Source: Thermoplasmata archaeon
Lineage (GTDB): Archaea; Thermoplasmatota; JASEFT01; JBBABA01
Direction of reading: 5' to 3'
DNA: 64,000 nt
Assembly: GCA_041657955.1 (NCBI GenBank)
Contig: JBBABA010000007.1
Span: forward strand, 27,117-91,116
Part shown: one piece after another, positions 29,923-51,718 of the stretch
Layout: the number at the start of each line of letters is the position of its first letter
How positions within the stretch are numbered: position 1 is the first letter of the stretch
Translations under genes and position numbers: made by a program
The notes under the pieces: model-generated
What the model was told of the DNA's origin: nothing
The model's database searches: none
Seen by the model: the letters and a program-made list of their open reading frames with translations, nothing else

Positions 29923-32900
29923 ATGACACGTCACAAAACTTTGGTCATAAGCATTGCATTATTTGTAGTTGTCACGATGTGCACCGCATTCCTAATTTCA
30001 CTAGAAACAAACCAACATCAATTTATGAAGGACTCCGATACGCATAACACATATCGCAACATCGTATCCGTGAGAGGACCACTGCCACCAGTTATAGAGA
30101 ACTATACCCCCGCATCCGATTCTATAACGATTTCGGAGGGCGATAGCCAAATATTCAATATAACAGCAAGCGTTGTTGAAAATGCGACTTCGAATTTTAC
30201 ATGGTATTTAGACGGACAACTCGTATCCGCCTCAGAGAATTATACCTCAGATAACTATACTTTTGTATCAAACTATAGTTCTGCAGAAGGAGGCAGTGCA
30301 GGCGTCTATAATATTATAGTATATTTGGTTTATAACAACATTAGCGGCAGTATAACTGTTAACATTTCACGTCCCTGGTCTATTCTAGTAAATGATGTGA
30401 ATTTAACATCTATGGTGACATTGGCACCAACGCCCGCAGTGAACACCACCATAACCGAGGAAGAAAACCGAACATTCTATACAAACACCAGCAATATCGA
30501 TACAAACAAAGCAAACATATCTATGAAATGGTATTTGAACGGCGAAATAGTTTCTACATCGGATAATTACACGTTTGTAGCGAATTATAGCTCTTCCGGC
30601 GTGTATAACGTAACACTCAATATCACAGATGGACAGCACTACCGCATATCCGAATGGTTGTTGACTGTGACAGATGTCCATAGATTAACATCAGTATACC
30701 CAGTGTTAACATACCCCGCAATAAACGAGAACGAAAGCTATACATTCAACATAACCACAAGCAGCCCCAGCATATACCCCCCGAACATCACATGGTATGT
30801 AAACGGGATACCGCAATCATTCCTAGAAAACTATACTTTCGTTTCGAATTACACCTCCGCGGGAGCATACAACATAACCGCAAACGTCGTTGATATGGAA
30901 TCCAATTTCACATATACATGGAATTTGACAGTAAGTGATGTAAACTGTCTTCAATTGATAAGTACAACGTTGGTTGTTGGAAATCAAACATTCAATGAAA
31001 ATCAAACATACATGTTTGTTCCGGATGTTGCCTGGTTAAATTGGACAAGCCTCTCGTTTAAATGGTACCTTAACGGCACGTTGGTATCTACGTCGCAGAA
31101 TTATACATTTGCTACCAACTACTCTTCTGCAAGTGCCTATGTTCTAAGATTGAATATAGCGGACAGCAATTATTCCGCTGATTTTACTTGGAATATTACT
31201 GTCGTTGATACTCCAAGACCGCCGATAATCCAATCCGCCGACCCTTCGATAAACGATTGCCTCCTATTAGAAGGAAGCAGCCAGACGTTTAATATTATAG
31301 TTACAGACACAACGGATTATTCTCCGAGCATATACTGGTATTTAGATGGAAATTTGGTTTCCACATCCACTTCCTTTGTGTTTGAAACGAATTATAGTTC
31401 TGCTGGATTTTATAACTTGACTGTAAACGTCACCGGCAGCGAAGGCAACGCCACAAAAAATTGGTTTGCAGAAGTAAGGGACCTAAACCGACCGCCAATA
31501 ACTACGAGATCTCCGGTGACGGATAATATCACGATAAACGAAACAACGAACGTGATTTTTACAATACGTGCAACAGACCTAGACGGCGATATGATTACAA
31601 TAAACTGGTCCTTGGATGGGGTTTTGATACCCAGCGCATATGAAACATATTCCTATATCCCGAATTACGTTTCCGCAGGTATACATAATGTAACTGTTAA
31701 CATCTCGGATGGTAAATCGAAGATAGTGTATGAGTGGAACATAACGGTGATGAACGTAAACAGAAAACCGACAATCATAAATTATATTCCAACGTCCAGC
31801 CCGACGATTATTGAATGTGAGAATCGAACATTTAACATCTCTGCCGTTGATCCGGATGGTGACCAGACAATAACAAACTGGTATTTGGACGATATACTTG
31901 TTGCGGCGAACTCCACCGCATACGAATTCGATACAGATTATTCATCTGCCAAGACGTACGTTCTAATCGCAAGGATAACAGACGGCGAGCTTGAAGTGTC
32001 CCATAGTTGGCTTATAACTGTTCTAAATAATAACAGGCCGCCCGAGATAAAGAGCGTAACACCGGCAAATCCAAACATTAGCATCAGCGATGGCGATACT
32101 GTTACATTCACTGCCGAATCCTCAGACGCCGACGGAACAGTTCCCATAATGAAGTGGTACTTAGACGATGCCCTTGTAGGAATCGGCACAACCTGCGTAT
32201 ACAATGCAGATTTCAATTCGTCTGGAACGCGCATATTTACGTTGTTAGTCACTGATGGCGAGGATTCCGAAAGGAACGTCTGGTGGATGAATATAACTGA
32301 CATAAACCGAGTTCCGATAATATATAAAACGATGCCTAGCGCAACACCAGTGACAATTACCGGGGGGGAAATGAACTTTAGCGTCGAAGTAATGGATTTA
32401 GATAATGACGCCTTATCATTTTATTGGTACCTGAATGGAACCGCAGTATCGAATTTTAAAAACTACACCATGCAGTTTAACCGTTCCTCTTCCAAAATAT
32501 ACAACCTCACTGTGATTGTTTCGGATAACAAATCAAATACGTCATACTATTGGACTCTTTACGTGAACATTTCGAACAAGAGGCCCATAGCCACAATTGT
32601 TTCGATAAACCCGAGCAACGCTACGCTCAAACAAAACATCGAATTTGTGGGCAACGGTACTGATGAAGATGGCATAGTCACCGGGTATCAATGGCGGTCG
32701 AGCATAGATGGCATCCTCAACAATAGTAAAAACTTCAATACCTCTAATCTTTCGCCCGGGAAGCATGCGATTTATCTAAAAGTCAAAGACAATGACAGCG
32801 AATGGTCTGATGAAGTAAACTCGACAGTGAGTATTAATCTTAGCCAGGAAACGACGACTCCTGCCGCACCCCCGCAGAAGGTCAACAATATTATTACCAT

Positions 32901-33156
32901 AGGGATTGTTGCAGGCACCGTTACTCTCATCGTATTGATACCCGTTTTTTACATCATAACAGTTAGAAAAGCGCCAACGAAGAAAGGATTAGTTTCAGAA
33001 ACGAGCAAACCCATAAAAAAGGTCGTGAAAAAAAGAAAACGGCCGAAAACCAGATTTTGCGCTCACTGCAAAAAGGAGATTCCGCGAGAGCTGATAGAAG
33101 TCGGGTGGGCAGAATGCCCCCATTGCGGAAAAGAGTGGGAGTCTCCTCATAAATAA
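29923..33156 (+). CDS. Type I membrane protein with ~10 PKD/Ig-like repeats and a cytoplasmic zinc-ribbon tail
   Basis: N-terminal signal-anchor, then ten ~95-aa repeats each ending W.(L/I)TV.DVNR.P. Each repeat holds a NYTF.(S/T)NYSSAG.YN(I/V)T motif (PKD-like Y..G.Y). TM helix at ~32885-32965. The tail is CAHC...CPHC (33052-33135). The gene starts 16 nt after the giant gene stop. Confidence 0.8.
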   Translation: MTRHKTLVISIALFVVVTMCTAFLISLETNQHQFMKDSDTHNTYRNIVSVRGPLPPVIENYTPASDSITISEGDSQIFNITASVVENATSNFTWYLDGQLVSASENYTSDNYTFVSNYSSAEGGSAGVYNIIVYLVYNNISGSITVNISRPWSILVNDVNLTSMVTLAPTPAVNTTITEEENRTFYTNTSNIDTNKANISMKWYLNGEIVSTSDNYTFVANYSSSGVYNVTLNITDGQHYRISEWLLTVTDVHRLTSVYPVLTYPAINENESYTFNITTSSPSIYPPNITWYVNGIPQSFLENYTFVSNYTSAGAYNITANVVDMESNFTYTWNLTVSDVNCLQLISTTLVVGNQTFNENQTYMFVPDVAWLNWTSLSFKWYLNGTLVSTSQNYTFATNYSSASAYVLRLNIADSNYSADFTWNITVVDTPRPPIIQSADPSINDCLLLEGSSQTFNIIVTDTTDYSPSIYWYLDGNLVSTSTSFVFETNYSSAGFYNLTVNVTGSEGNATKNWFAEVRDLNRPPITTRSPVTDNITINETTNVIFTIRATDLDGDMITINWSLDGVLIPSAYETYSYIPNYVSAGIHNVTVNISDGKSKIVYEWNITVMNVNRKPTIINYIPTSSPTIIECENRTFNISAVDPDGDQTITNWYLDDILVAANSTAYEFDTDYSSAKTYVLIARITDGELEVSHSWLITVLNNNRPPEIKSVTPANPNISISDGDTVTFTAESSDADGTVPIMKWYLDDALVGIGTTCVYNADFNSSGTRIFTLLVTDGEDSERNVWWMNITDINRVPIIYKTMPSATPVTITGGEMNFSVEVMDLDNDALSFYWYLNGTAVSNFKNYTMQFNRSSSKIYNLTVIVSDNKSNTSYYWTLYVNISNKRPIATIVSINPSNATLKQNIEFVGNGTDEDGIVTGYQWRSSIDGILNNSKNFNTSNLSPGKHAIYLKVKDNDSEWSDEVNSTVSINLSQETTTPAAPPQKVNNIITIGIVAGTVTLIVLIPVFYIITVRKAPTKKGLVSETSKPIKKVVKKRKRPKTRFCAHCKKEIPRELIEVGWAECPHCGKEWESPHK

Positions 33157-33394
33157 AATTAAACCATATGATCGTTTACCGGGGAAAGAGCATTTGCGGC
33201 CGCGTGAAGTTTAAGGAACCCCGTGAATTTAAAAGAAGGCATTGTACCGTTTATGAAGATGACCCACTAGTAAACTTCTTATATGTGGTAGATAAATTAG
33301 GTGAAATTTCCAATAATTGTAATCTATGCATAGTAGCATATATATGGGTGATAACAGTTGAGTGTAAGTCGAATGAAGTGGATGAGGAAAATAG

Positions 33395-36300
33395 ATGATG
33401 CTGATGAATGAAGAGAACAAGAAACCAGTTATAAGTTATAATAATCTAAAATCCCTTTGGTTAAACGAGAATTTTAGAATCGGGATTCTACTGATATGCA
33501 TATTTATCTTAGCACTCTTCTTAAGAACATACTTTGTGGTCGGTCCGTCCACTGCGGGTTTTGACGTTTCTGGTGGCTCAGATACCTTTTATTATAAGAG
33601 AACCATAGATTATGCACAGACGAATCACCGCCAGCTGACATGGGACCCGCTTCTTAACTATCCTTCCGGCTCCATAAACCCCAGGCCTCCTTTCTACACG
33701 TGGACAACTGTGGTTCTAGGAGATGTCTTGACGCCGGTCACCAGCCCGCTGCTCGGCTGGGACGAGTACACGACTACATTCTATATGTTCATGCTTATGC
33801 CTGCATTGTTCGGTGCGTTAACAGTCATCCCGCTCTACTACCTGGGCAGGGACATGTTCGGCAAAAAAGCAGGATTGATCGCGGCCTTTTTCTTGGCAAT
33901 AACACCTGGTCACTTAGAACGCTCGACGTTTGCTTTTTCAGACCATGATTCTTTTCTATTATTCTTTACAGTCTGCGGATTCTTTTTTTATTTACGATCT
34001 TTAGAAAAACTTGGCGACGAATATTGGGTGCGCGATTGGAAGAGCCCTACATCCATATTTACTGGCCTCAAATATTTCCTCAAACGAAATAAAATAGCGA
34101 TTGGTTATGCGGCGATGGCTGGCATGTCCTTCGGTGCTGTTTCCCTCGGTTGGCAAGGTTTTACGTATGTATTTGCGATTATATTTATCTATTATGTCGT
34201 CCAGATATTGACTAACCACGCGAGGCGTGTAGATTCTCTTGGCATTGCCGTTTGTACAGCTATATCCTTGGCTATTCCGTTGTTTATATCTATTCCACCG
34301 TATAATGCTACTGGCCTGGCCCTTACAGAGTGGGGTTTGTTGCCTGGTTTCATCATTCTCCTCGCGGTAATATGCGCAGCTTTTATCCTTGTACCGACAA
34401 GGGATTTCCCTTTGATACTAGTTATCGGAGTTACGGCGTTCATCACAGCGATGGCGCTTCTGATACTGACTTTTGTTATCCCAAGCATCGGCAATATGTT
34501 GTTCACTGGTGCAGGATACTTTATAAAAAACAAGTTGTACTCTACCATCGCGGAGGCGCAACCTGGCGATTTCAGCAGATTGGTGTTTTCGTATGGCCCA
34601 ATAACATTTTATCTGGCATTAATAGCGATAGTTTTTGCTGTATTGAGAACTTACAAAACATGGAAGAGCGCAGACGTATTCGCTACAGTGTGGGCAATTG
34701 TGTCGATTTACATGGCCCTGTCCGCAGTAAGATTTATGTTTAACGCCAGTCCTGTCTTTGCCGTACTTGCGGGCTATGGTTTATGGGAGATCATGAGAAG
34801 ACTGGATTTCCACACAGTTTGGAAGAACATTAAAGCTGCAAAGGGGGAGAGACTCCACACGTTTAGGAGGGAAGTAAAAAGCCTCCACATACTGGGTGTC
34901 TTGTTCGTGGCATTCTTGGTGTTGTATCCTAATCTGTGGTATGCCTTCGATGCGAGTATACCATTTGAGAAAAAGAAGGAGTATGACCAGAAGATATACG
35001 ACATTACGCCGGCGTTTCTCAGACCAGAAGGCTATGAGGGGGGGGGGCTATGGTATCTCGGCTCATTCGGCCCTTCATTTTCATCAGAATACTGGATAGA
35101 TGGTTATAAATGGCTTTCCGAACAGGATAATGACGTACCGGCAGAGATGAGGCCTGCGTTCGTGAGTTGGTGGGACTACGGATTCGAGGCGGCGCAATCC
35201 GGAAAACACCCGACTGCCGCAGATAACTTCCAGGCGGGATATCAATTTGCAGGAAATGTTATTACATCTCAGAATGAAAGTATGACCGTATCTATGTTCA
35301 TAATTCGCTTACTTGAAGGGGGCTCGGCATGGGAAAATAATGTTTCCAGTGGACGATTTAGTAAGGAAATAAGAGATGTTCTTGTTAATCGTTTAGGCAA
35401 TGAAAGGACAAACAAACTAGAAAAGATTATGACAGGGACTAGTGAAATTGTTGATATGGTGAATAATGACCCGGGCAAATATGAAATATTCAACCCGGAC
35501 ACAAATGAATATTCGGGACACAGCGACCTTACCTATTTCAATGCCAGGTACCTAGTGGGCCGTGCGTTACTAGAAGAACTAAACGACGAGTCGTTAGTAT
35601 CGTTATACCATGACGTTCGCGATGTAATGGGAAAATCTATCAGATACTTTGCAATCGACTCCAGACTGTTTCCGTTTAGCGCCACGAACACCGGCATATT
35701 CTATGCACCAGTAAAATTGGCCGATTACAGGATTATAGACGGCCAGCCGATAGATTTCATCGAAACCAAAGTAGAAACCGAAAGCGGCACTATAATGACA
35801 ATAGAGGATGCGAGCGAGATGGCACAAAAGGATTCAACATTTAGAATCAAGGATTACGTTCTAGAATACAAGAGGTCATTTTACAACAGTATGCTGTATA
35901 GGACGTACATAGGTTATAGCGGCTATGATTTAGGCATGGGAGACCAAGGCGTACCCGCAATCGCTCCAAAAGGGGAATTTGCCAACAACGATCAATTTTA
36001 TCCTATGCAGGGCTGGATGATGAAACATTTTAAACTCGCGTATAAAACAGCGTATTGGAACCCATATAACAGAAGCGTGGTAGAACAGTATCAGAACGCC
36101 TGGGTATTAATGTCTTACGATAAAGCCATCGAAAACCAAAAAACCTTTGGCGGTACAATAACAACATCTCTTTATTCCGCCGTGATGTTTCTGAAATATT
36201 ACGATGGCGCATTCATTAATGGAAGTATAAAAACCGAGGGCGGAATGCCGATACCAAATGTGCGGGTTACGGTTTTTGACGAATATGAAACACCGCACGA

Positions 36301-39300
36301 TACAGTACTCACAAACGAGTCTGGCTTCTACAGCATATTGGCGCCCTATGGCAACACGACCCTTAGGGTTTCATCCGGCGGCAGTCTCGACCAGCTGTTT
36401 CAAATCGAAAAGACAGTGCTCAACACAACAAACATAATAATCAGCGATGCTCAAGCCATGAGAGAAAATATAGACAACGACAGAGACGGCACTTATGACT
36501 ACAATATCAGAAATGACATAACGCTGAAATCTATAAAACTCACAGTCGAGACCAGAATAGATAACGCGGTGACAGATAAAACAGCGATAATAACACTAGA
36601 GAGCCCATCCCCAGTGCAGACAAAGAGCGTGAATACTGTAAACGGGGTCGCCGTGTTTAGCGACGTCGCCCCCAGCACATACGATATAACCGCTAAGTTC
36701 GGCAATCATACATCAATGCCTTTCGAGGCTACTTTTACACCTACGGACGCAGACGCCCCGCAGACCAGAACAATAAACGTCAATGGTTCTGTGATAGGAG
36801 GTTTCGTTAAATTGAGTGATGGAACCACAAAAGATAGTATCCGCCTCTCTCTTTATGATGAAGATGATAAAACTAAAAAAGAAACCACAAGCGGGAGCGA
36901 TGGGGCGTATACATTTAGCGGGCTGTTGCCTGGAAACTACACCCTTTCCGTAAAAGAGCCGGGTTTTCTGCCATTCACCAAATTATACACATTTACCGGA
37001 ACAGCGATAACAGAGGACGGGGAGGAAACAGACAGAGAGATAAGACTCGACGAGAACGTTAGCCTTATTCAACGAATTGTTGTAAACGGCTCAATTAGCG
37101 GCATTACTCAAGATGGTATAGCAGTCCCCCTCACAAACGCTATGATGCGATTCGATAACATGGATGGCGGCATAAGTGTGACCAGCATATCGAACGAAAG
37201 CGGTGCATATACTGTAGAATTGCCAAACGGAAATTTCACTGTGTACTCGAAATACGATTACGCTTATTGGAAATTAGAGAGTAAAACATCCGATACGTTT
37301 GTACACCTTTCAAGACTAAACACCGGCGATTTGGAAAAAACCGACTTCTATTACAATATCACTGCGAGCAATTCTAAACATATTAGTAAGGTGGATGGAA
37401 CGGTATATGCCGACCTCAACGATAACGGCATAAATGAAGCTTCCGAAATAGTTACCGATACATGTGTCACTTTCACTTCAATGGACAATGCTTCCCTAAA
37501 TCTACCGACGAACGCTAATGGCTCATATCGTACATACATCCCACAGGGAAGGTACTTTGTAAATGCTACATACTACGACTACGCGGCTATGAACGATTCC
37601 GTGTATGCGTATGCAGACATTATAAACATCAACGAAAAGGCTATGGAGTTGCCGCCGATTGTTTTACGAAAGGCCGCGAAGGTAAGCGGTATGCTGTATT
37701 GGGACCACAACAACGACAGTGAATATAATATAGGAGAGGAATTGAGTGATACAACTATCCTATTTTGGAACAATAAGTGCTCAATAAAAACAATGTCTAG
37801 TGACAATGGCTCTTATCAAATATTTTTGCCACGGGGAAACGAATACAATATTACAGGAGTTTATTATAACGTAATGGATAGGACAGATATCGTATCAGAC
37901 AACGATAAAGTAGCTGACATTTCGCTTGAACCGAAAAACATTACAGTAACTACTAGAGTATATTACGATAGCAATAATAATGGTGTGTTCGACAACAATG
38001 AAGTGCCCATAGATAACATTCTCTTAAATTTTGAGGGGATCGGAGCATACACCAAGAGCGTGTATAATATAACTACGGTAAGTGGGAAGTGCAATGTCTC
38101 GTTGATACCTGGAAAATATAGAATAATAAATTCTACAAATATAGAAAACAAGACGTATTATTCCTATTCTATAGACGTAAATATAGATATCGGAAACAAA
38201 CCTATAGCCATAGAGGTTTCTGCTGAGAAGTTGGTATATGTTAACGTGAGTGCGTTTGTAGAAAACACCGGGGAGTATGTTTCCGCGCAAGTGGAATTCG
38301 CGGTAAAAGGAAATCGCGGAGAAAACAAGACTTTCGTCGCAACCAACGGCTCATATTCAGGGTACATAAGGGCGGGCGAATATAATGTCTGGAGTGAATA
38401 TGTAAACCAGACCGATAACAAACATTACGTGAGCCTATTTAAGACCGTAATAAATAATGAACCGAGCATCGCAATTACACTCGTTGAAGGCATGAGAATT
38501 CTTGCCTCCGCTACATACATAAATGCGATTGGCCTCGCTACCAACGTTGGAGAAACGGACATTCCGGTCAAATTTACAAAGATAGATGACAAAGCGATTA
38601 GGACTATTTCGCTCGGAAATCTTGGAGCAGGCAGCGTCTATCTTCCGCCTACAGAGTATATGCTGAATATAGATTACAGTAAAGACGAGGGTTCGGGGCC
38701 GACTGTAAACGCAAAATACTCGTATTACAAACCCGAGGAGAATATACCTTCACCGTCCATCTCCGTAACGTCATATAACCTTTCGATTCCACTAAACAAA
38801 ACAGTTAGAGCGTACGGAACCACATTCTTCGATAAAAACAACAATGGAATGAGCGATTCTGGCGAAGAACAAAGTAATGTAAGGGTCACCTTCTTTGGCA
38901 ATAAGGGAGGAACCTATGAGTGCACTACGGATACAAGTGGACAGTATAATTTTTATGCACCGTTCGATGTCTACAGGGTAAAAGTTGAAAAAATTGGTTT
39001 TGAGGAGGAACCGGTTGTTGGAAGCGTTGCAATAACTCCTGGAAATGTAATGAATAACATCAGTATAGTGCAGATAGAACCGCTCCTAAATGGTATTGCT
39101 TATTATGATGATGCACGAGATGGAATATACAACGGCACTGAACAGAAAGTCTACATGACTAAACTGGAATTCGTAGGAGAACGCAATACATCTGCACCTC
39201 TTGATACAATCACTAGCGATGGGTATCATGGTATCAAACTGTCGCCGGGCAAATATACGGTGTATGCAGTCGGTTACGATACGGCCCAGAACATTTACTC

Positions 39301-40744
39301 CATTATAGATTCCGTTGAGATACCAACCAGCAACAATAGAACATATCACCACGATTTGCCGTTTTATAGAGGGATGTCGATAACTGGCAAGGTATCTTAT
39401 TGCAACACCACTGGAGCAACAATAGACATGCCAAGCGGGGAGATAGCATTTAAAAAAGGTGACACTTCGCTGAAGATCGCTGTAGCGCGCGGAACATATG
39501 ATACCGTGTTGCCGATGGGCGAATACGCTGCATCTGTGTCTCATACATCTCGGGAATTTAACATAGATATGCCGTACAATGTGGAGAAGAAATTAAATGT
39601 AACCGAGCAGCAAACTGCGTACAATCTTGAGCTCTCTAAAGAAAAGAAGTATACATTTGAACTAACGGCCTCAAATCCAGCACAAACAACCTCGCAGGGT
39701 GCCTCTATCCAATATAACATTATTGTGGAGAATACGGGAAACGAAAATAACAATATCTCGCTTGAATGCGCATATGTGGGTTGGGAAATCTCAATAGATA
39801 ACAGCGCGTTAGAACTAAAAATCGGGGAGTCGAAAAACACTACGATTCGTGTTCACACATCATCAGACGCTACAAGCACCGATCCGCACCAGATACAAGT
39901 AACAGGGAAGTCCCGGATAAACACCGGAGTTACGGACACCCTATCTTTGACGACAAATATAAAGCAGGTTTATGGTGTAGAAATAACTACATTGAACCCC
40001 AAACAAAGCATATTGCCGAATACGTCAGCAACATATACATTTACGATAACTAACGATGGCAACGGTTTAGATACGTTCTCGCTATTTAACTCCACACTAC
40101 CAGATGGCTGGACAGTGAACTTCAATAGAACGTCTATAGACATTGGTCCGAAAGGCAGCGGTGAAATATCGGCTACTGTTGAAAACACCGTAGGTGCAGG
40201 GAACAGCACAGTTTTGACAATATACGCGTTTTCTAAAGACAACGTGACCTCGGCTCAAGTGAACATCACGACAAATGCCAAGACCGCCAGTGTAACTGCC
40301 AGAGCAAGCGATATCACTTTCCAGAATGCGGATTTAAGAGAAGGCGGGCAAATAACGATAAATGCAACGGTTCTTAACAGCGAGGTCCCGCTTAAAGATA
40401 CAATCATAGAATTCTATATTGCTGGAAGATATATAGGAAACGAAACGCTCTTTAGATTAGACGAGAATGAAATAAGAAATGTGAGCGTAACACTAAACGT
40501 TTCAAGCGGAGAATGGAATAAAACGATCCTGAGAGAATCTGAATATCCGGTCACGTTGAGAATTGCGGACCTGCAGAACAACACAATTGCCATGAGTGAT
40601 GGCGCGAAGATGCTGTTTGTCGGAGTGAAAGTAGAACAGGTATTCAACTGGAAACCGATCATATTCGTTGTTGGAATCGTGGTGGCAACCCTACTTGTTC
40701 TGATGATTCTCCGGGTTATAGCGAAAAGAAAGGGAAGGATCTGA
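33395..40744 (+). CDS. aglB: Archaeal oligosaccharyltransferase AglB (STT3 family) with a ~1,500-aa C-terminal extension
   Basis: Polytopic N-terminal half. WWDYG motif at nt 35168-35182 (SWWDYGFEAAQSGKHPTAADNFQ). From ~36200 come CarboxypepD_reg/SdrD-B-like repeats (GSIKTEGGMPIPNVRVTVFDE..., GTTFFDKNNNGMSDSGEE...). NEW3/CARDB-like domains follow at ~39650-40500. The C-terminal TM is IIFVVGIVVATLLVLMIL plus KRKGRI. Confidence 0.85.
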   Translation: MMLMNEENKKPVISYNNLKSLWLNENFRIGILLICIFILALFLRTYFVVGPSTAGFDVSGGSDTFYYKRTIDYAQTNHRQLTWDPLLNYPSGSINPRPPFYTWTTVVLGDVLTPVTSPLLGWDEYTTTFYMFMLMPALFGALTVIPLYYLGRDMFGKKAGLIAAFFLAITPGHLERSTFAFSDHDSFLLFFTVCGFFFYLRSLEKLGDEYWVRDWKSPTSIFTGLKYFLKRNKIAIGYAAMAGMSFGAVSLGWQGFTYVFAIIFIYYVVQILTNHARRVDSLGIAVCTAISLAIPLFISIPPYNATGLALTEWGLLPGFIILLAVICAAFILVPTRDFPLILVIGVTAFITAMALLILTFVIPSIGNMLFTGAGYFIKNKLYSTIAEAQPGDFSRLVFSYGPITFYLALIAIVFAVLRTYKTWKSADVFATVWAIVSIYMALSAVRFMFNASPVFAVLAGYGLWEIMRRLDFHTVWKNIKAAKGERLHTFRREVKSLHILGVLFVAFLVLYPNLWYAFDASIPFEKKKEYDQKIYDITPAFLRPEGYEGGGLWYLGSFGPSFSSEYWIDGYKWLSEQDNDVPAEMRPAFVSWWDYGFEAAQSGKHPTAADNFQAGYQFAGNVITSQNESMTVSMFIIRLLEGGSAWENNVSSGRFSKEIRDVLVNRLGNERTNKLEKIMTGTSEIVDMVNNDPGKYEIFNPDTNEYSGHSDLTYFNARYLVGRALLEELNDESLVSLYHDVRDVMGKSIRYFAIDSRLFPFSATNTGIFYAPVKLADYRIIDGQPIDFIETKVETESGTIMTIEDASEMAQKDSTFRIKDYVLEYKRSFYNSMLYRTYIGYSGYDLGMGDQGVPAIAPKGEFANNDQFYPMQGWMMKHFKLAYKTAYWNPYNRSVVEQYQNAWVLMSYDKAIENQKTFGGTITTSLYSAVMFLKYYDGAFINGSIKTEGGMPIPNVRVTVFDEYETPHDTVLTNESGFYSILAPYGNTTLRVSSGGSLDQLFQIEKTVLNTTNIIISDAQAMRENIDNDRDGTYDYNIRNDITLKSIKLTVETRIDNAVTDKTAIITLESPSPVQTKSVNTVNGVAVFSDVAPSTYDITAKFGNHTSMPFEATFTPTDADAPQTRTINVNGSVIGGFVKLSDGTTKDSIRLSLYDEDDKTKKETTSGSDGAYTFSGLLPGNYTLSVKEPGFLPFTKLYTFTGTAITEDGEETDREIRLDENVSLIQRIVVNGSISGITQDGIAVPLTNAMMRFDNMDGGISVTSISNESGAYTVELPNGNFTVYSKYDYAYWKLESKTSDTFVHLSRLNTGDLEKTDFYYNITASNSKHISKVDGTVYADLNDNGINEASEIVTDTCVTFTSMDNASLNLPTNANGSYRTYIPQGRYFVNATYYDYAAMNDSVYAYADIININEKAMELPPIVLRKAAKVSGMLYWDHNNDSEYNIGEELSDTTILFWNNKCSIKTMSSDNGSYQIFLPRGNEYNITGVYYNVMDRTDIVSDNDKVADISLEPKNITVTTRVYYDSNNNGVFDNNEVPIDNILLNFEGIGAYTKSVYNITTVSGKCNVSLIPGKYRIINSTNIENKTYYSYSIDVNIDIGNKPIAIEVSAEKLVYVNVSAFVENTGEYVSAQVEFAVKGNRGENKTFVATNGSYSGYIRAGEYNVWSEYVNQTDNKHYVSLFKTVINNEPSIAITLVEGMRILASATYINAIGLATNVGETDIPVKFTKIDDKAIRTISLGNLGAGSVYLPPTEYMLNIDYSKDEGSGPTVNAKYSYYKPEENIPSPSISVTSYNLSIPLNKTVRAYGTTFFDKNNNGMSDSGEEQSNVRVTFFGNKGGTYECTTDTSGQYNFYAPFDVYRVKVEKIGFEEEPVVGSVAITPGNVMNNISIVQIEPLLNGIAYYDDARDGIYNGTEQKVYMTKLEFVGERNTSAPLDTITSDGYHGIKLSPGKYTVYAVGYDTAQNIYSIIDSVEIPTSNNRTYHHDLPFYRGMSITGKVSYCNTTGATIDMPSGEIAFKKGDTSLKIAVARGTYDTVLPMGEYAASVSHTSREFNIDMPYNVEKKLNVTEQQTAYNLELSKEKKYTFELTASNPAQTTSQGASIQYNIIVENTGNENNNISLECAYVGWEISIDNSALELKIGESKNTTIRVHTSSDATSTDPHQIQVTGKSRINTGVTDTLSLTTNIKQVYGVEITTLNPKQSILPNTSATYTFTITNDGNGLDTFSLFNSTLPDGWTVNFNRTSIDIGPKGSGEISATVENTVGAGNSTVLTIYAFSKDNVTSAQVNITTNAKTASVTARASDITFQNADLREGGQITINATVLNSEVPLKDTIIEFYIAGRYIGNETLFRLDENEIRNVSVTLNVSSGEWNKTILRESEYPVTLRIADLQNNTIAMSDGAKMLFVGVKVEQVFNWKPIIFVVGIVVATLLVLMILRVIAKRKGRI

Positions 40745-40755
40745 GTTTTTAGGGG

Positions 40756-41328
40756 TTACGCCCTTCCGTGTGATTCTCCAATTTTTATTCCTGCCGCAAT
40801 AAGGTGCGCAATCCGTATCGGCTCAGGCATAACGCCCCGTAAGGTCGTGATGTCCATGACCTCCTTAACCTCGGATAATTTCAAGCCGACATAATTTACA
40901 TAAAGATTGCTGCGCCCTCTTTTTATCTGCACGATTTCCTTGGATATTATTACATTCCATCTTCTATTCCAGTCTGTAAACTTTTGTTTAAGCACCTTTT
41001 TCATAGAATTTAAATCTGGTTTTTTACGGGTTATAGTAATGACTGGAATATTTAAATCGCCATATAATTTTTGTATATCAATTACGTTGAAGCCACCGAA
41101 TGCGATGCCGTCTATCATTATTGTTTTTATTTGCTCCTTGTATCGCGAAGCTTTTATCATCTCGATTAATTTGTCTGTAGCGTCCCTGCCATCTACCTCG
41201 ACTTTAGTTTTTAAAACAGCATCCATGTAAAAATTGCCGCGAAGGAGAACTGCAACGACCTCGGTTGTTTTATCCGTAAATTTGAACGGGGCATCGTCTA
41301 TTCCGAGCGTACGGATTTGGGATTTCAT
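40756..41328 (-). CDS. DUF99 / UPF0215 family protein
   Basis: LGIDDAPF...VVAVLLRG..YMDAVL..KVEVDGRDATDKL...IMIDGIAFGGFNVIDI is typical of archaeal DUF99. Confidence 0.7.
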   Translation of the reverse strand: MKSQIRTLGIDDAPFKFTDKTTEVVAVLLRGNFYMDAVLKTKVEVDGRDATDKLIEMIKASRYKEQIKTIMIDGIAFGGFNVIDIQKLYGDLNIPVITITRKKPDLNSMKKVLKQKFTDWNRRWNVIISKEIVQIKRGRSNLYVNYVGLKLSEVKEVMDITTLRGVMPEPIRIAHLIAAGIKIGESHGRA

Positions 41329-48968: not shown

Positions 48969-49883
48969 ATGCCCAAAAATTCCGAAGCCCCTAAAAACCT
49001 AAAACCGATTATCATAAGCATACTCATAGACGTCGGTATCGCTTCCCTGGTTGCCATTGTAGTAGTGGGATCGATGGCTGCGTACTCCCAGAACTGGCCG
49101 CCGTTGGTAGTGATAGAATCGAGCAGCATGATGCACGGAAGCGACAGCAGTGTTGGAACAATCGACACTGGCGACCTGACACTTGTAAAACACATAGGCG
49201 ATAAAAATGAAATAATAACTTATGTCAGGGGGAGAGCTACGGGCTATACCACGTATGGCGACTATGGCGATGTTGTTATTTATAGCCCGCCCAAGAATGT
49301 AAGGGCAGACCCTACGCCGGTGATACATAGGCCGTTTTTGTGGCTAGAATACAATAGCACCGGCAAAAGTTTTGACGCTCCGGAACTGGCATCACTCCAG
49401 TATGGCATTGACTGGGAGACGGACAGCGGTTCATGCTATAATATTAAGAGCAGCATAAAGCTAAAAGACGTGGGATATAGGTATGTAGAGGTCAATATTG
49501 CAATAAACGACCTGCTTACACCTGCGCACAGCGGATTTGTCACCCTCGGCGATAACAACCGAGGGATATACGACCAAAGAACTAACACGTGCAGAGAGCT
49601 CGTAAAAACAGAGTGGATAATAGGGAAGGCACAGGGAGAGATCCCGTGGTTTGGTTTATTGAAACTGTACGTAGACGGGAGCATCACTCCAAGCAATCCG
49701 GCACCGCAGGTTAGCATAATTCTGCTAGTGGCTACAGTACTGACAATAATACTATTACCCATCGCCTTGGAGGTATGCATAACGCTTTTGGAGAAGAAAA
49801 ACCAAAAAGAAGAGGCAAGCGATTGTGTGAAAGAGAAGAAGAGAACGATGCCGCGTTTTTGTATAAAAAAGAAAAAAGAATAG
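48969..49883 (+). CDS. Signal peptidase I, archaeal/Sec11 type (S26B), long form
   Basis: N-terminal TM, ESSSMMHG (catalytic Ser box), GDLTLVK, VIHRP, TLGDNN box, then a second TM and a Lys-rich tail. Confidence 0.75.
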   Translation: MPKNSEAPKNLKPIIISILIDVGIASLVAIVVVGSMAAYSQNWPPLVVIESSSMMHGSDSSVGTIDTGDLTLVKHIGDKNEIITYVRGRATGYTTYGDYGDVVIYSPPKNVRADPTPVIHRPFLWLEYNSTGKSFDAPELASLQYGIDWETDSGSCYNIKSSIKLKDVGYRYVEVNIAINDLLTPAHSGFVTLGDNNRGIYDQRTNTCRELVKTEWIIGKAQGEIPWFGLLKLYVDGSITPSNPAPQVSIILLVATVLTIILLPIALEVCITLLEKKNQKEEASDCVKEKKRTMPRFCIKKKKE

Positions 49884-49936: not shown

Positions 49937-51718
49937 ATGAACTGCAATAAAAAGACAATATTTGTAACGTTATTCGTATTGTTAGCGGTAGTGGCAGTCA
50001 TATTGTTATTTTCGGCGATGGAGGTGAAGGCGTCAACTATAACTGTGGACGATGATGGTGGGAAGGATTATACGAGCATTCAGGGCGCAATCAATGCTTC
50101 GTCATCGGGTGATACTGTTTATGTCTACAACGGCACATATTGCGAACAAATTACAATAAACAAAACCATAAATTTGACAGGAGAGAGTGCTCAAAACACA
50201 ATAATAAGAGGGGACGCCACGCCCTCAAGTAAAGGCATTTATATCGAACACGGTATGAATATGAGCACCTACATTAATATTAGCACCTTAAAAATTGAGA
50301 ACTTCTATTACGGCATCTATATTCATAGCTCGTATAACAACATCACTTCAAACGAAATCGTAAATTGTTATTACGGGATATATTTGCAGGGTATTCTATC
50401 GCCACTCGGTTATCCTCCCCCTACCGTCCCTTCAGAAAAAAACAAAATCACCCATAACAAAATAACGAATTGTGGTTTTGGGGTCTATCTCGGAGATGCA
50501 ACTAAATTGAACAGTGTCGCCTTAAACTCAATAATAAATTCCAATTACAGTGTCTATATAGATTCCAATGGGTTTGGTAAGAACCTCATCTATTCTAACA
50601 ATATGATAAACGCCACTCTGGGTGCATACGACGCTATAGATGAATATTCATCAAATAAAGGAAGCCTTTGGAATGAGAGTAAAAGAGGTAACTATTGGAG
50701 TGACTATAATGGCTCGGACTTAGACGATGACGGTATCGGAGATTTCCCATACATTATTTCTGGTGGAAGTTCTAAGGATTGGTACCCACTCATGAGAGTG
50801 GTTGATATAACTTCGATAAGCCCATCTATAAACCACGCTCCTATTGTAATGCTAATTGTCAATCAATCCACAACAGTAGGGGCAAAGTTCACTTATCGGG
50901 TGAATGCATCAGATGAAGATAACGATAACTTGACATATTCCTCGAATATAGGATACATAAACAATACTGTTTTCTTCACCTTCACGCCAACAACGAGCGG
51001 AATATATAATATCACAATAACAGCTAACGACAGCAAAACGCAAACCTCGATAACATTTGTACTGAACGTCTTGAACAGCTCGCCCGTAATACTATCGATC
51101 CCAGCGCAGAACGTAACTATCGGAAACAATTTTACCTATCAAATAGTCGCAACCGATGCAGATAACGACGCATTAGCATATAACGCAAGCATAGGCACAA
51201 TAAACGCTACAGGTTTCTTCTCTTATACACCAAATACTACAGGCACCTACAACATAACAATAACCGTAAACGACAGCAAAACAGAAACCAACATAGCATT
51301 TGTTTTGAATGTAACAAATCTCCCGCCAGTTATAGCAATAACATCTCCTTTTGATAATTCGACAGTTAATGGAACTATAACAATGATCGGTACATCATCA
51401 GACGATGTTTTGGTCCAAAACGCTCAGATAAAGATAGACGGCGGAAATTGGATTGATGCCGTTGGCAATACATCATGGAACTATATACTAAACACTACGG
51501 CACTTACAAACGGAAATCACACAATAACCGTCCGTGCTTACGACGGAACGTATTATTCACCGGAGAAGTCGATAACAATAAATGTAGATAACAAGAAAAT
51601 AGAGGAAAAACCAGCGGAACCTAAGAAAGAGTTTATCCCGTTCGCGAGTTTCAACGTCATCATGCTCAATATTCTTGCCTTGGCGGTTTTGATCGATTTG
51701 ACAAGAAGAAAAAAGTGA
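49937..51718 (+). CDS. Secreted right-handed beta-helix (NosD/PbH1-like) protein with cadherin-like and Ig-like domains and an IPFA-TM-RRKK C-terminus
   Basis: Signal peptide, then TITVDDDGGKDYTSIQGAINASSSGDTVYVYNGTYCEQITINKTINLTGE. Two repeats follow (TYRVNASDEDNDNLTYS / TYQIVATDADNDALAYN), then an Ig-like domain. The C-terminus is KKEFIPFASFNVIMLNILALAVLIDLTRRKK. Confidence 0.75.
   Translation: MNCNKKTIFVTLFVLLAVVAVILLFSAMEVKASTITVDDDGGKDYTSIQGAINASSSGDTVYVYNGTYCEQITINKTINLTGESAQNTIIRGDATPSSKGIYIEHGMNMSTYINISTLKIENFYYGIYIHSSYNNITSNEIVNCYYGIYLQGILSPLGYPPPTVPSEKNKITHNKITNCGFGVYLGDATKLNSVALNSIINSNYSVYIDSNGFGKNLIYSNNMINATLGAYDAIDEYSSNKGSLWNESKRGNYWSDYNGSDLDDDGIGDFPYIISGGSSKDWYPLMRVVDITSISPSINHAPIVMLIVNQSTTVGAKFTYRVNASDEDNDNLTYSSNIGYINNTVFFTFTPTTSGIYNITITANDSKTQTSITFVLNVLNSSPVILSIPAQNVTIGNNFTYQIVATDADNDALAYNASIGTINATGFFSYTPNTTGTYNITITVNDSKTETNIAFVLNVTNLPPVIAITSPFDNSTVNGTITMIGTSSDDVLVQNAQIKIDGGNWIDAVGNTSWNYILNTTALTNGNHTITVRAYDGTYYSPEKSITINVDNKKIEEKPAEPKKEFIPFASFNVIMLNILALAVLIDLTRRKK

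What the first reader, a model, noticed from the sequence alone, without database searches (positions are those of the whole stretch)
36200..40744. AglB with a ~1,500-aa beta-sandwich C-terminal extension and a second membrane anchor
The STT3 core with WWDYG at 35168-35182 ends around nt 36200. The ORF continues for another ~4.5 kb. That part encodes about eight CarboxypepD_reg/SdrD-B-like repeats, NEW3-like and CARDB-like domains of the kind seen in the neighbouring S-layer-like protein, and a terminal TM helix plus KRKGRI. Characterised archaeal AglBs that I know of are well under half this length. The tail could tether the enzyme into the surface layer, act as a substrate-recruiting scaffold, or itself be a structural envelope component.
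Basis: partly seen in the sequence, partly recalled or inferred. Interest (0 to 1): 0.65.

Follow-up and report, generated by a model that had tools for sequence, protein, structure and literature searches.

The report
Giant archaeal glycosylation enzyme with anchored arm
This is a real 2,449-residue version of the archaeal protein-glycosylating enzyme AglB, carrying a long string of small beta-sandwich domains that ends in a second membrane anchor; the design proves conserved across a whole archaeal phylum (Thermoplasmatota) yet I found no description of it in the paper library searched.

Summary
ORF 33395-40744 (+) is one uninterrupted 2,449-aa gene. Three metagenome assemblies cover the core/extension junction, and none has an indel inside the ORF.

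The first 935 aa are a complete AglB/STT3 oligosaccharyltransferase:
- The AF2 model's best match is A. fulgidus AglB (7E9S).
- D63, D183-H-D185, T384-I-x-E387 and WWDYG592-596 are invariant in 115/115 giant relatives.

About 15 beta-sandwich domains follow:
- 12 are prealbumin/CarboxypepD_reg-like.
- 2 are NEW3-like.
- 1 is CARDB-like.

The protein ends in a TM helix and the KRKGRI tail.

The architecture is not unique to this genome. Hundreds of Thermoplasmatota proteins of 2,000-3,200 aa share it, including one from the cultured Aciduliprofundum sp. MAR08-339. Nearly all of them end in a C-terminal anchor.

New findings:
- The first beta domain is as conserved as the enzyme core. The other domains diverge fast but stay co-linear.
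- The arm has twice the N-glycosylation sequons expected from its composition.
- In 43 of 60 related loci a ~250-aa CARDB membrane protein is encoded immediately downstream, often with a 4-nt overlap. In this window its C-terminal half appears fused onto AglB.

Most likely this is an active OST with a self-glycosylated, doubly anchored envelope arm. The arm's function is inferred, not shown.

The parts
33395..40744 (+). Whole gene: giant AglB, 2,449 aa plus stop codon
   Evidence: Single ORF. No indel inside it in three assemblies. More than 190 full-length relatives of 2,000-3,200 aa.
33395..34954 (+). Membrane-embedded GT-C/STT3 core, aa 1-520 (multi-helix bundle)
   Evidence: Pfam STT3 84.8 bits, cutoff 24.5. 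Aligns to A. fulgidus AglB-L residues 7-576. AF2 model helical, pLDDT 87. Foldseek top hit 7E9S.
33581..33583 (+). D63, first catalytic acidic residue (aligns with AfAglB-L D47)
   Evidence: HMMER alignment GGSDTFYY / GGNDPWYY. D in 115/115 relatives.
33941..33949 (+). D183-H184-D185, second DXD-type metal/catalytic motif (aligns with AfAglB-L D161-H-H163)
   Evidence: alignment. Invariant in 115/115.
34544..34555 (+). T384-I385-A386-E387, TIXE motif of the flexible external loop
   Evidence: Aligns to TIAE of AfAglB-L. T, I and E invariant in 115/115.
34955..36214 (+). Extracellular catalytic/globular domain of AglB, aa 521-940
   Evidence: AF2 model mixed alpha/beta with high confidence. Whole-core Foldseek match to AglB, STT3 and PglB structures. 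38% mean identity to relatives.
35168..35182 (+). WWDYG motif (aa 592-596)
   Evidence: present in all 120 listed relatives, and invariant in the 115 aligned full-length ones.
35657..35710 (+). D755-x-R757-x-x-P760 ... I768-F-Y770-A771-P772: family-invariant third motif, candidate DK/MI-equivalent with Ile in the Lys position
   Evidence: Column counts. Compared by eye with the variant consensus E<>KXXX(M/I/P) and MXXIXXX(I/V/W) in PMC3703281. The assignment is an inference.
36215..36514 (+). bS1: first CarboxypepD_reg-like beta-sandwich (aa 941-1040), as conserved as the enzyme core
   Evidence: Pfam CarboxypepD_reg 43.4 bits. Repeat HMM. 42% mean identity vs 38% for the core.
36515..39676 (+). 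bS2-bS12: eleven further prealbumin/CarboxypepD_reg/SdrD_B-like beta-sandwich domains (aa 1041-2094). Boundaries are approximate; bS2, bS9 and bS12 are inferred from spacing and the all-beta model
   Evidence: repeat starts 1134, 1230, 1345, 1443, 1529, 1621, 1817, 1911. AF2 all-beta model. 14-20% identity but low gap fraction in relatives. Family profile hits NOMO2 at E=1e-39.
39677..40282 (+). Two NEW3/choice-of-anchor-T-like beta-sandwich domains (aa 2095-2296)
   Evidence: NPCBM_assoc 24.9 bits, cutoff 24.4. NCBIfam choice_anch_T 58 bits, below cutoff 70. Conserved NxGN...W columns.
40283..40624 (+). CARDB-like domain (aa 2297-2410), homologous to the second domain of the separately encoded downstream partner of other giant AglBs
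   Evidence: CARDB 15.5 bits, sub-threshold. BLAST to partner proteins E 2e-7 to 3e-4. Partner HMM 23.5 bits, aa 2157-2447. Absent from most relatives, gap fraction 0.61. Low-confidence part of the model.
40655..40723 (+). C-terminal transmembrane helix (aa ~2421-2443), preceded by F-N-W-K
   Evidence: Hydropathy. Same FNW(R/K)+TM tail in 13 relatives.
40724..40741 (+). Basic cytoplasmic tail KRKGRI
   Evidence: 193 of 196 relatives of >=2,000 aa end in a TM plus K/R-rich tail.

Best explanation
The gene encodes a functional archaeal oligosaccharyltransferase (AglB) of a Thermoplasmatota-wide 'giant AglB' family.

Shown:
- Residues 1-935 are a complete AglB with every recognisable catalytic motif under strict conservation.
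- Residues 941-2410 are about 15 beta-sandwich domains.
- The chain ends in a TM helix with a basic tail.

Inferred from the established AglB topology (C-terminal globular domain outside the cell) and the positive-inside rule:
- The whole arm is extracellular.
- The last helix re-enters the membrane, so the arm is a loop or arch tethered at both ends.

Inferred from conservation:
- bS1 is part of the enzyme proper.
- The following domains act mainly through their number and length, as a spacer or rod. Their sequences drift while the domain count is kept.

Inferred from a two-fold sequon excess:
- The arm is itself heavily N-glycosylated, probably by its own or neighbouring catalytic domains.
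- It therefore contributes to the glycoprotein coat of the cell, while holding the enzyme in register with that coat.

The terminal CARDB-like domain plus TM corresponds to a small type-I membrane protein. In most relatives that protein is a separate gene translationally coupled to aglB. In this lineage it is fused, which argues that AglB and this partner work together at the membrane.
For: Reality of the ORF:
- Searches show no indel in three assemblies.

AglB identity:
- Pfam STT3.
- Alignment to 3WAJ.
- AF2 core pLDDT 87 / pTM 0.87.
- Foldseek top hits 7E9S, 3WAK and 5GMY at TM 0.54-0.61, followed by STT3A/B, yeast Stt3 and PglB.

Active-site integrity:
- D63, DHD183-185, TIxE384-387 and WWDYG are invariant in 115/115 relatives.

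Conserved architecture:
- 196 of 253 relatives are >=2,000 aa, and 193 of those have a C-terminal TM plus basic tail.
- 59 of 62 complete ORFs in GTDB species genomes are >=2,000 aa and end in such an anchor.
- A cultured Aciduliprofundum has a 2,081-aa version.

Arm anatomy:
-.

Differential conservation:
- Core 38%, bS1 42%, other domains 14-23% identity, with gap fractions mostly below 0.17.
- Lengths are tightly clustered within clades, for example 2,117-2,196 aa across 62 clusters.

Sequon excess:
- 50 observed vs 24.9 +/- 4.3 expected, with 0 of 2,000 shuffles reaching the observed count.
- z > 2 in 82% of 114 relatives.

Surface-protein character:
- 26 relatives end in PGF+TM+RRR. The best-scoring tails tested pass the NCBIfam Loki-/Heimdall-CTERM sorting-domain cutoffs.

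Partner gene:
- Present in 43 of 60 loci.
- It has a 4-nt overlap with aglB in 13 loci and lies within -4..+5 nt in 25.
- It carries a CARDB domain scoring 27-59 bits.
- Its HMM matches the extreme C-termini of 31 longer AglBs, which mostly lack a separate partner gene.
- It also matches window aa 2157-2447.
- The window's nearest core relatives are of this fused type.
Against: - No expression, protein or activity data exist for any family member.
- The function of the arm is inferred from composition and conservation only.
- An enzyme is normally needed in far lower copy number than a coat protein, so 'structural envelope component' may overstate its contribution.
- The AF2 model gives no reliable inter-domain geometry (pTM 0.43). 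'Arch' versus 'compact bundle' is therefore open.
- The match between the window's C-terminus and the partner family is weak: 23.5 bits with high bias, found only with filters off, and BLAST E-values of 2e-7 to 3e-4 against a one-sequence subject.
- The DK/MI-type Ser/Thr pocket motif could not be aligned objectively.
- I could not determine whether the genome also has an ordinary short AglB.
Confidence: 0.6

Rival explanations
1. OST accessory scaffold. The arm and the CARDB partner play in cis the role that non-catalytic luminal subunits (ribophorins, OST48/Wbp1) or translocon-associated rods (NOMO) play in eukaryotes. They would capture or hold nascent or unfolded secreted polypeptides near the active site, and the C-terminal TM would pack against the STT3 helix bundle. 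The glycans on the arm would then be incidental.
For: - bS1 is conserved like the catalytic core.
- The partner gene is conserved and translationally coupled, and is fused in several clades, which is Rosetta-stone logic.
- The family profile's best PDB sequence hit is the translocon-associated NOMO2, E=1e-39 in four stretches.
- Eukaryotic OST accessory subunits are likewise luminal beta-rich domains on single C-terminal TM helices (established knowledge of the yeast and human OST structures 6EZN and 6S7O, which appear as core matches).
Against: - Domains bS2-bS12 are only 14-20% identical across the family, which is low for a specific substrate-binding surface.
- No chaperone-like or lectin domain was detected.
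- The NOMO similarity is at the repeat-domain superfamily level. The window protein alone does not reach NOMO in PDB, and its hits to NOMO-derived Pfam models are below cutoff.
- No structure-based evidence for TM packing could be obtained.
Confidence: 0.25
2. Adhesin or interaction arm. The fast-evolving beta-sandwich string is a surface-exposed binding or shielding structure (cell-cell contact, attachment, or a virus decoy). It would merely use AglB as a convenient polytopic membrane anchor, with no functional coupling to glycosylation.
For: - Low sequence conservation of most arm domains, typical of exposed surface proteins.
- The gene sits next to very large surface or adhesin-like genes in this window: an 8,356-aa DUF2341/LamG/Kelch protein and a 1,077-aa PKD/Ig protein.
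Against: - That neighbourhood is not conserved in 80 related loci.
- Both ends are membrane-anchored and no distal tip or binding domain is present.
- The domain number is conserved and co-linear over a whole phylum.
- The fusion to AglB has been maintained in at least 190 sequence clusters, which is hard to explain without functional coupling.
Confidence: 0.1
3. Artefact: two adjacent genes (aglB and a surface protein) joined by an assembly or sequencing error, or a decaying pseudo-enzyme.
For: - A few related records are split or truncated: L026, L060 and L080, and JGI members of 872 + 1,278 aa on one contig.
Against: - Three assemblies show no indel in the ORF.
- 59 of 62 complete orthologous ORFs are continuous.
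- The catalytic residues are invariant.
- The split cases lack the C-terminal anchor and sit in otherwise giant clades, so they look like the errors.
Confidence: 0.02

Closest known systems
Archaeal oligosaccharyltransferase AglB (e.g. Archaeoglobus fulgidus AglB-L, PDB 3WAJ/5GMY/7E9S, 868 aa)
   Same: - GT-C fold over the whole 935-aa core: Foldseek E=1e-20, TM 0.57/0.61.
- The acidic residue D63 (=D47), DHD (=D161-x-H163), TIxE and WWDYG are all present and aligned.
- An extracellular globular domain follows the last core TM.
   Different: - 2.8 times longer. Characterised A. fulgidus AglBs are 591-868 aa (PMC3703281).
- ~15 extra beta-sandwich domains and a second, C-terminal membrane anchor.
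- Ile rather than Lys at the probable second signature position of the DK-type motif (inference).
- Scores below the TIGR04154 subfamily cutoff, 228 vs 450 bits.
NOMO (Nodal modulator), the rod-like subunit of the eukaryotic BOS complex at the ER translocon (PDB 9C7V)
   Same: - A string of a dozen prealbumin/CarboxypepD_reg-like beta-sandwich domains on the non-cytoplasmic side, ending in one TM helix and a short cytoplasmic tail.
- The family profile hits NOMO2 at E=1e-39 over four stretches spanning residues 54-1091.
- NOMO-derived Pfam models (PF22904, PF23194, PF22902) are precomputed hits in most relatives.
- NOMO is described as 12 prealbumin-like domains that may set ER sheet spacing (PMC11186639).
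   Different: - NOMO is a separate protein with a signal peptide, not fused to an enzyme.
- It partners with Nicalin and TMEM147, which were not looked for here.
- The similarity is at repeat-domain level. The window protein alone gives only sub-threshold NOMO Pfam hits and no PDB hit to NOMO.
- No specific ancestry is claimed.
Archaeal surface (S-layer-type) glycoproteins with PGF-CTERM/archaeosortase or C-terminal TM anchors (e.g. Haloferax volcanii S-layer glycoprotein)
   Same: - Extracellular beta-sandwich arrays.
- Strong enrichment of N-glycosylation sequons.
- C-terminal TM plus basic tail. In 26 relatives a PGF-type tripartite signal is present, and the best-scoring tails tested pass the Loki-/Heimdall-CTERM models.
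   Different: - The N-terminus is a polytopic enzyme rather than a cleaved signal peptide.
- The window's own tail matches no known sorting-signal model.
- There is no evidence of lattice formation or of high abundance.
Non-catalytic subunits of the eukaryotic OST complex (ribophorin I/Ost1, OST48/Wbp1)
   Same: - Luminal beta-rich domains on a single C-terminal TM with a short basic cytosolic tail, associated with STT3 (established knowledge).
- The conserved, translationally coupled ~250-aa CARDB type-I membrane partner of giant AglBs has that overall shape.
   Different: - No sequence or fold similarity to these subunits was detected or tested.
- The analogy is architectural only.

Membership tests
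AglB / STT3 / PglB oligosaccharyltransferases (GT-C) | Multi-helix GT-C membrane domain recognised by the STT3 profile | tested here: met
   Pfam PF02516 84.8 bits vs cutoff 24.5, aa 62-460. AF2 core is helical through aa ~537.
AglB / STT3 / PglB oligosaccharyltransferases (GT-C) | Catalytic acidic residues in the first external loop and second DXD-type motif | tested here: met
   D63 aligns with AfAglB-L D47. D183-H184-D185 aligns with D161-H-H163. All are invariant in 115/115 relatives.
AglB / STT3 / PglB oligosaccharyltransferases (GT-C) | TIXE motif in external loop 5 | tested here: met
   T384-I385-A-E387 aligned to TIAE of 3WAJ. T, I and E invariant.
AglB / STT3 / PglB oligosaccharyltransferases (GT-C) | [quoted passage not shown] | tested here: met
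   aa 592-596. Present in all 120 listed relatives.
AglB / STT3 / PglB oligosaccharyltransferases (GT-C) | DK or MI motif forming the Ser/Thr(+2) pocket | tested here: inconclusive
   HMMER alignments to 3WAJ stop before the motif. The family-invariant I768-x-Y-A-P772 resembles the variant consensus E<>KXXX(M/I/P) but with Ile for Lys. The assignment was made by eye.
AglB / STT3 / PglB oligosaccharyltransferases (GT-C) | Overall fold of a solved OST | tested here: met
   Foldseek: 7E9S E=1.1e-20, TMq 0.57 / TMt 0.61. The next hits are 3WAK, 5GMY, STT3A, STT3B, yeast Stt3 and PglB.
AglB / STT3 / PglB oligosaccharyltransferases (GT-C) | Transfer of a lipid-linked glycan to Asn in N-X-S/T | not testable with these tools
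   Needs an enzyme assay or glycoproteomics.
TIGR04154 archaeosortase-A-associated OST subfamily | Score at or above the curated NCBIfam cutoff | tested here: not met
   228 bits vs cutoff 450, aligned only over aa 31-630.
Archaeosortase substrates (PGF-CTERM and related sorting domains) | C-terminal tripartite signal (motif + TM + basic tail) recognised by a sorting-domain model | tested here: not met
   The window tail (FNWK + TM + KRKGRI) matches no NCBIfam sorting model at E<=1. Among four PGF-type tails of relatives tested, P0002 passes both the Loki-CTERM (24.5/19.9) and Heimdall-CTERM (25.1/24) cutoffs, P0004 passes Loki-CTERM only (23.6/19.9), and P0011 and P0022 fall below all cutoffs.
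NOMO / BOS-complex rod | Array of ~12 prealbumin-like domains followed by one TM and a short cytosolic tail | tested here: met
   About 12 CarboxypepD_reg-like domains plus 3 others, then a TM and a 6-aa tail. Family profile vs 9C7V_B gives E=1e-39. This is an architectural and superfamily-level match only.
NOMO / BOS-complex rod | Curated NOMO domain models above threshold; partnership with Nicalin/TMEM147 | tested here: not met
   NOMO_5th 16.8 bits and NOMO1-like_9th 18.1 bits against a cutoff of 27. Partners were not searched for. It is therefore not filed as a NOMO family member.
S-layer glycoproteins | Forms a paracrystalline surface lattice and is a major cell-surface protein | not testable with these tools
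   Only indirect features are available: sequon excess and anchor types.

The most novel reading that the evidence does not exclude
Thermoplasmatota use a multi-component oligosaccharyltransferase rather than the single-subunit enzyme assumed for Archaea. It would consist of a giant AglB whose NOMO-like rod and C-terminal helix fold back onto the catalytic membrane domain, together with a dedicated, translationally coupled CARDB type-I membrane subunit. That subunit is fused in this lineage. The assembly would double as a fixed-length, self-glycosylated envelope spacer. It would be an archaeal counterpart, convergent or ancestral, of the accessory luminal subunits and rods that surround STT3 and the translocon in eukaryotes.
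Probability: 0.25. Interest if true: 0.75.

Novelty: new variant of a known kind. Interest (0 to 1): 0.6.

Why it matters
AglB is treated as the textbook single-subunit, ~600-1,000-aa archaeal OST. Here a whole phylum, including gut and sediment methanogens (Methanomassiliicoccales), marine groups II/III and deep-sea DHVE2, carries a version two to four times larger.

The distinctive features are these:
- a conserved, co-linear, sequon-rich rod;
- a second membrane anchor;
- a dedicated small membrane partner.

Public databases label these proteins only generically ('STT3 domain-containing', 'carboxypeptidase regulatory-like', 'glycosyltransferase family 39'). Seven of the eight literature searches asked whether this architecture had been described, and they found nothing.

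If the arm is a spacer or coat element, it links the glycosylation machinery physically to envelope architecture. That matters in lineages whose cell envelopes are poorly understood, several of which lack classical S-layers. If the partner and arm act as OST accessory modules, this would be the first hint of a multi-component OST outside eukaryotes.

A cultured organism, Aciduliprofundum sp. MAR08-339, carries the gene pair, so both ideas are testable.

Tried and rejected
1. Frameshift or chimera. Rejected by laying contigs of four runs on 33000-41200 and by orthologue ORF lengths.

2. Degenerate pseudo-enzyme. Rejected by column counts.

3. Conserved neighbourhood with the 8,356-aa and 1,077-aa surface proteins, Endo_dU or Cdc6. 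BLAST of the window's neighbours against ORFs of 80 related loci found at most one hit each. The adjacency is local and not part of the system.

4. A specific global fold for the arm. Foldseek of the 1,193-aa model returned only generic multi-Ig arrays (alpha-2-macroglobulins, HYDIN-like proteins, integrins, the B. anthracis TIE protein) at TM ~0.1. This is uninformative beyond 'beta-sandwich string'.

5. A known sorting signal in the window's own tail. None was found.

6. Objective alignment of the DK/MI motif to 3WAJ, using both the single sequence and the family profile. The alignments end at chain residues 576 and 595.

It was redone with 32 sequences.

8. Literature searches for giant AglB/STT3 in Thermoplasmatota, Methanomassiliicoccales or Aciduliprofundum, or for AglB combined with CarboxypepD_reg domains. 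Nothing relevant was found.

9. Cluster look-ups to find isolates among Methanomassiliicoccales hits. Only MAGs and enrichment genomes turned up. An isolate was found only via the DHVE2 query.
Full report
**What is in the sequence**

ORF 33395..40744 on the + strand is a single uninterrupted frame of 2,449 codons. Hydropathy shows the expected cluster of helices in aa 21-519. After that there is nothing hydrophobic until one final segment, aa ~2416-2445. The protein ends ...FNWKPIIFVVGIVVATLLVLMILRVIAKRKGRI.

Pfam finds STT3 (84.8 bits), CarboxypepD_reg (100.8 bits, three stretches), SdrD_B, CarbopepD_reg_2 and a weak NEW3 hit. NCBIfam finds the archaeal STT3 subfamily model, but below its cutoff (228 vs 450 bits). 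It also finds choice-of-anchor T at aa 2161-2263.

**Is the long ORF real?**

I laid Logan contigs of four metagenomes on 33000-41200.
- The source assembly is a landfill metagenome at 177x word depth, and it is identical.
- An independent groundwater assembly covers 35888-36662, which includes the proposed junction, with no difference at all.
- A ~97%-identical strain from a third study covers 33684-36617 with 81 substitutions and no gap.
- All seven small indels reported lie upstream of 33395 or downstream of 40744.
- The one replaced block inside the ORF (37537-37662) differs by 6 nt, so it stays in frame.

Substitutions without frame-breaking indels are the signature of a translated, selected ORF.

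**The core is a complete AglB that looks active**

phmmer against PDB aligns aa 22-618 to A. fulgidus AglB-L residues 7-576. The alignment pairs these residues:
- D63 with D47;
- D183-H-D185 with D161-H-H163;
- T384-I-A-E387 with TIAE;
- WWDYG with WWDYG.

In a MAFFT alignment of 115 full-length relatives, all of these residues are invariant. So are H605-P606, N611-F612, D755, R757, P760, Y770-A771-P772, and I768 (114/115).

An AF2 model of aa 1-935 has pLDDT 87.2 and pTM 0.87. Its best Foldseek matches are 7E9S, 3WAK and 5GMY (A. fulgidus AglB-L; E down to 1e-20, TM 0.54-0.61). Human STT3A/B, yeast Stt3 and PglB follow.

The DK/MI Ser/Thr-pocket motif could not be aligned objectively. By eye, the invariant T-G-I768-F-Y-A-P772 lines up with T-G-K618-Y-Y-A-M of AfAglB-L. 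That fits the published variant consensus E<>KXXX(M/I/P), but with Ile as in the MI motif (PMC3703281). This suggests an Ile-type pocket, and I mark it as an inference.

**The extension**

Scanning ten overlapping 200-aa fragments against Pfam, together with an iterated repeat HMM built in the sandbox, places CarboxypepD_reg/SdrD_B-like repeats at aa 941, 1134, 1230, 1345, 1443, 1529, 1621, 1817 and 1911. Spacing implies further domains between them. NEW3-like domains lie at ~2095-2296 and a CARDB-like domain at ~2297-2410.

An AF2 model of aa 1228-2420 (32-sequence alignment) is entirely beta, with mean pLDDT 80.5. Confidence falls in the last ~130 residues. Counting the three domains upstream of the model gives about 15 beta-sandwich domains.

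The model's Foldseek matches are generic arrays of Ig-like domains with TM ~0.1. There is no specific global fold.

A profile of the family searched against PDB sequences gives human NOMO2 (9C7V_B) as its best hit. NOMO2 is the 12-domain prealbumin-like rod of the ER BOS complex. The hit has E=1e-39, in four stretches spanning NOMO residues 54-1091, and it ranks ahead of AglB itself. The window protein alone does not reach NOMO, and its hits to NOMO-derived Pfam models are sub-threshold. The relation is therefore one of repeat-domain superfamily plus overall architecture (rod, one C-terminal TM, short tail). It is not family membership.

**Not a peculiarity of this genome**

A word-indexed search with the full protein found 439 relatives. 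The best 120 are almost all 2,100-2,800 aa, ~30% identical, and carry STT3 plus CarboxypepD_reg domains. They come from Thermoplasmatota and Methanomassiliicoccales MAGs.

An exhaustive HMMER search with the core alone (aa 1-935) found 1,689 representatives at E<=1e-3 and 282 at <=1e-30. The top 150 are again mostly 2,000-3,200 aa.
- Of the 253 proteins in hand, 196 are >=2,000 aa.
- 193 of those end in a hydrophobic helix plus a K/R-rich tail.
- Shorter entries mostly lack the anchor and look truncated.
- Two length classes look like genuine shorter relatives: ~1,100-1,260 aa (aligned to the window core only through about aa 640-670) and two proteins of ~950 aa (core matched to about aa 885-895).

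A scan of GTDB species genomes found 581 relatives. The best 80 loci are all labelled Thermoplasmatota or its subgroups, or carry generic labels; two are labelled as bacteria, which are evidently mis-binned. The named subgroups are Methanomassiliicoccales, Methanomassiliicoccus spp., DHVE2, marine group III, Poseidoniia and 'Ca. Saliniplasma'. Of 62 ORFs complete in their contigs, 59 are >=2,000 aa and end in an anchor. The three exceptions end without an anchor inside otherwise giant clades, and they look like assembly frameshifts.

A search from a DHVE2 member recovered a 2,081-aa protein of the cultured Aciduliprofundum sp. MAR08-339. NCBI names it 'putative membrane protein, required for N-linked glycosylation'.

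Database names elsewhere are generic. Seven of the eight full-text searches concerned prior description of this architecture, and they found none. Characterised A. fulgidus AglBs are 591-868 aa.

**How the parts evolve**

I mapped a 50-sequence alignment onto the window protein. Mean identity and gap fraction by region are:

| Region | Mean identity | Gap fraction |
|---|---|---|
| Membrane core | 38% | — |
| External catalytic domain | 38% | — |
| bS1, first beta-sandwich (aa 941-1040) | 42% | — |
| bS2-bS12 and NEW3 domains | 14-23% | mostly 0.02-0.17 |
| CARDB-like domain | — | 0.61 (absent from most relatives) |

The low gap fractions show that the domains are retained and stay co-linear even as they diverge. 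Within clades, total length is tightly kept; one group of 62 clusters spans only 2,117-2,196 aa. I read this as follows. bS1 belongs to the enzyme. The rest of the arm is selected for the number and length of its domains and for its surface chemistry, rather than for a specific binding surface.

**The arm looks like a glycoprotein**

Fifty of the protein's 55 N-X-S/T sequons lie in aa 941-2449. Shuffling aa 941-2414 gives 24.9 +/- 4.3, and none of 2,000 shuffles reaches 50. The external catalytic domain shows no excess, with 3 observed against 2.9 expected. Across 114 relatives the median z is 4.7, and 82% have z>2.

**Three kinds of C-terminal anchor, and a partner gene**

Relatives end in one of three ways, and the types are clade-specific:
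- a plain TM plus basic tail;
- PGF(E/G)+TM+RRR (26 proteins);
- FNW(R/K)+TM+KKK, as in the window.

Four PGF-type tails were tested. P0002 passes the NCBIfam cutoffs of both the Loki-CTERM and Heimdall-CTERM sorting domains, P0004 passes Loki-CTERM only, and P0011 and P0022 fall below all cutoffs. The window's tail matches no sorting model.

While clustering ORFs around the 80 loci, one family stood out. It is a ~250-aa protein with a signal peptide, two beta domains, a TM and a basic tail, and it is encoded directly after aglB in 43 of 60 loci.
- Its start overlaps the aglB stop by 4 nt in 13 loci and lies within -4..+5 nt in 25.
- Its second domain is a significant CARDB domain, at 27-59 bits.
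- The pair is present, with the 4-nt overlap, in the complete genome of Aciduliprofundum sp. MAR08-339.

An HMM of these partners matches the extreme C-termini of 31 giant AglBs. Most of these are longer than 2,400 aa, but six are 2,228-2,342 aa. P0050 scores E=1e-37; it still retains the internal TM and signal segments, so it is a plain read-through fusion. The others have a single terminal TM. Loci with such long AglBs lack a separate partner gene.

With filters off, the same HMM matches window aa 2157-2447 at 23.5 bits. That is E=5.6e-7 against all window ORFs, and no other window ORF is hit. BLAST of individual partners against the window protein aligns their CARDB+TM halves to aa ~2280-2448, with E from 2e-7 to 3e-4.

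The window's nearest relatives by core identity (P0079, P0046, P0140, P0080, P0031, P0006) are all of this fused type. Downstream of the window's aglB there is only Endo_dU, on the opposite strand.

The 'second membrane anchor' of the finding is therefore most likely the anchor of a partner protein. That partner is separate in most of the phylum and fused here. For the window protein itself the evidence is moderate, not strong.

**How it most likely works**

Shown: an intact AglB core, an all-beta arm and a terminal TM, all conserved across a phylum.

Following from established AglB topology (13 TM helices, C-terminal domain outside, as in 3WAJ) and from the positive-inside rule: the arm is extracellular, and its last helix returns to the membrane with KRKGRI in the cytoplasm. 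The arm is therefore tethered at both ends.

Inferred:
- The arm is N-glycosylated and forms part of the cell's glycoprotein coat.
- It acts as a fixed-length spacer or tether that keeps the OST in register with the envelope.
- bS1 is an integral part of the enzyme.
- AglB works together with the CARDB partner.

The main rival is that the arm and partner are accessory modules for substrate handling, analogous to eukaryotic OST subunits or NOMO. I cannot separate the two readings with sequence data, and they are not mutually exclusive.

**Context**

The window's aglB follows an 8,356-aa surface protein (DUF7266 N-terminus, DUF2341, LamG, Kelch, FG-GAP, F5/8-C) and a 1,077-aa PKD/Ig protein. This adjacency is not conserved elsewhere, and these neighbours do not contain NEW3 or CARDB domains.

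**Verdict**

The object is a new, uncharacterised architectural variant of a well-known enzyme. It is widespread in public data but was not described in the paper library searched. It comes with a conserved partner gene and with a cultured organism in which it can be tested.

Noticed in passing
window 49937-51718 (+) and 53886-55217 (+): Two secreted Ig/PKD-domain proteins (593 and 443 aa) end in almost the same tail: K-x-F-I-P-F-A-(S/N)...V-I-(M)-L-N-I-L-(A/I)-L-A-V-L-I-D-L-T-R-R-K-K. This is a shared motif + TM + basic-tail signal reminiscent of archaeosortase/exosortase sorting domains. It matches no NCBIfam sorting model. A subtilase (51819-53885) lies between them.
   Followed up: partly
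window 4836-29906 (+): An 8,356-aa ORF. It has an N-terminal DUF7266-type hydrophobic start, then multiple DUF2341, Laminin_G_3, Kelch propeller, FG-GAP, F5/8 type C and purple-acid-phosphatase-N domains. There is no C-terminal anchor. It is a giant surface protein directly upstream of the aglB region.
   Followed up: partly
window 29923-33156 (+): A 1,077-aa protein with an N-terminal TM and PKD/Ig-like repeats. After a K/R-rich stretch it has a C-terminal CxxC...CxxC zinc-ribbon-like end (…FCAHCKKEIP…WAECPHCGKEW…). That implies a cytoplasmic C-terminus, although hydropathy of the intervening region was not examined.
   Followed up: no
L082 12243-13016 (Aciduliprofundum sp. MAR08-339, CP003168.1) and 42 other loci, e.g. 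L043 16216-16992: A conserved ~250-aa CARDB type-I membrane protein is translationally coupled to the giant aglB, with a 4-nt overlap in 13 loci. Most records appear to leave it unnamed. It is a candidate AglB partner or subunit.
   Followed up: yes
proteins P0212, P0219, P0222, P0224, P0229, P0230, P0232, P0236, P0244, P0250: An even larger class of AglB relatives, 3,146-3,228 aa. The STT3 core starts only at about residue 330-410, so there is an additional N-terminal extension, and WWDYG lies at ~935-995. All end in a C-terminal anchor.
   Followed up: no
proteins P0200, P0204, P0208, P0210, P0214, P0215, P0218, P0227, P0252: A consistent ~1,110-1,200-aa class of relatives. They align to the window core only through about aa 640-670 and almost all lack a C-terminal anchor (P0204 has one). 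They may be a mid-sized AglB lineage or paralogue, and their taxonomy is unknown.
   Followed up: no
window 48969-49883 (+): A 304-aa membrane protein with an SSSMxH motif, suggestive of a type I signal peptidase. It has no Pfam hit at E<=1e-3. It sits just upstream of the two proteins with the shared IPF-type tail.
   Followed up: no
P0050 (2,667 aa): This relative contains the complete partner sequence (HMM 20-252, E=1e-37) after two retained internal hydrophobic segments at 2352-2403. It looks like a simple read-through fusion of aglB and its partner, or a missed stop codon in that assembly.
   Followed up: partly
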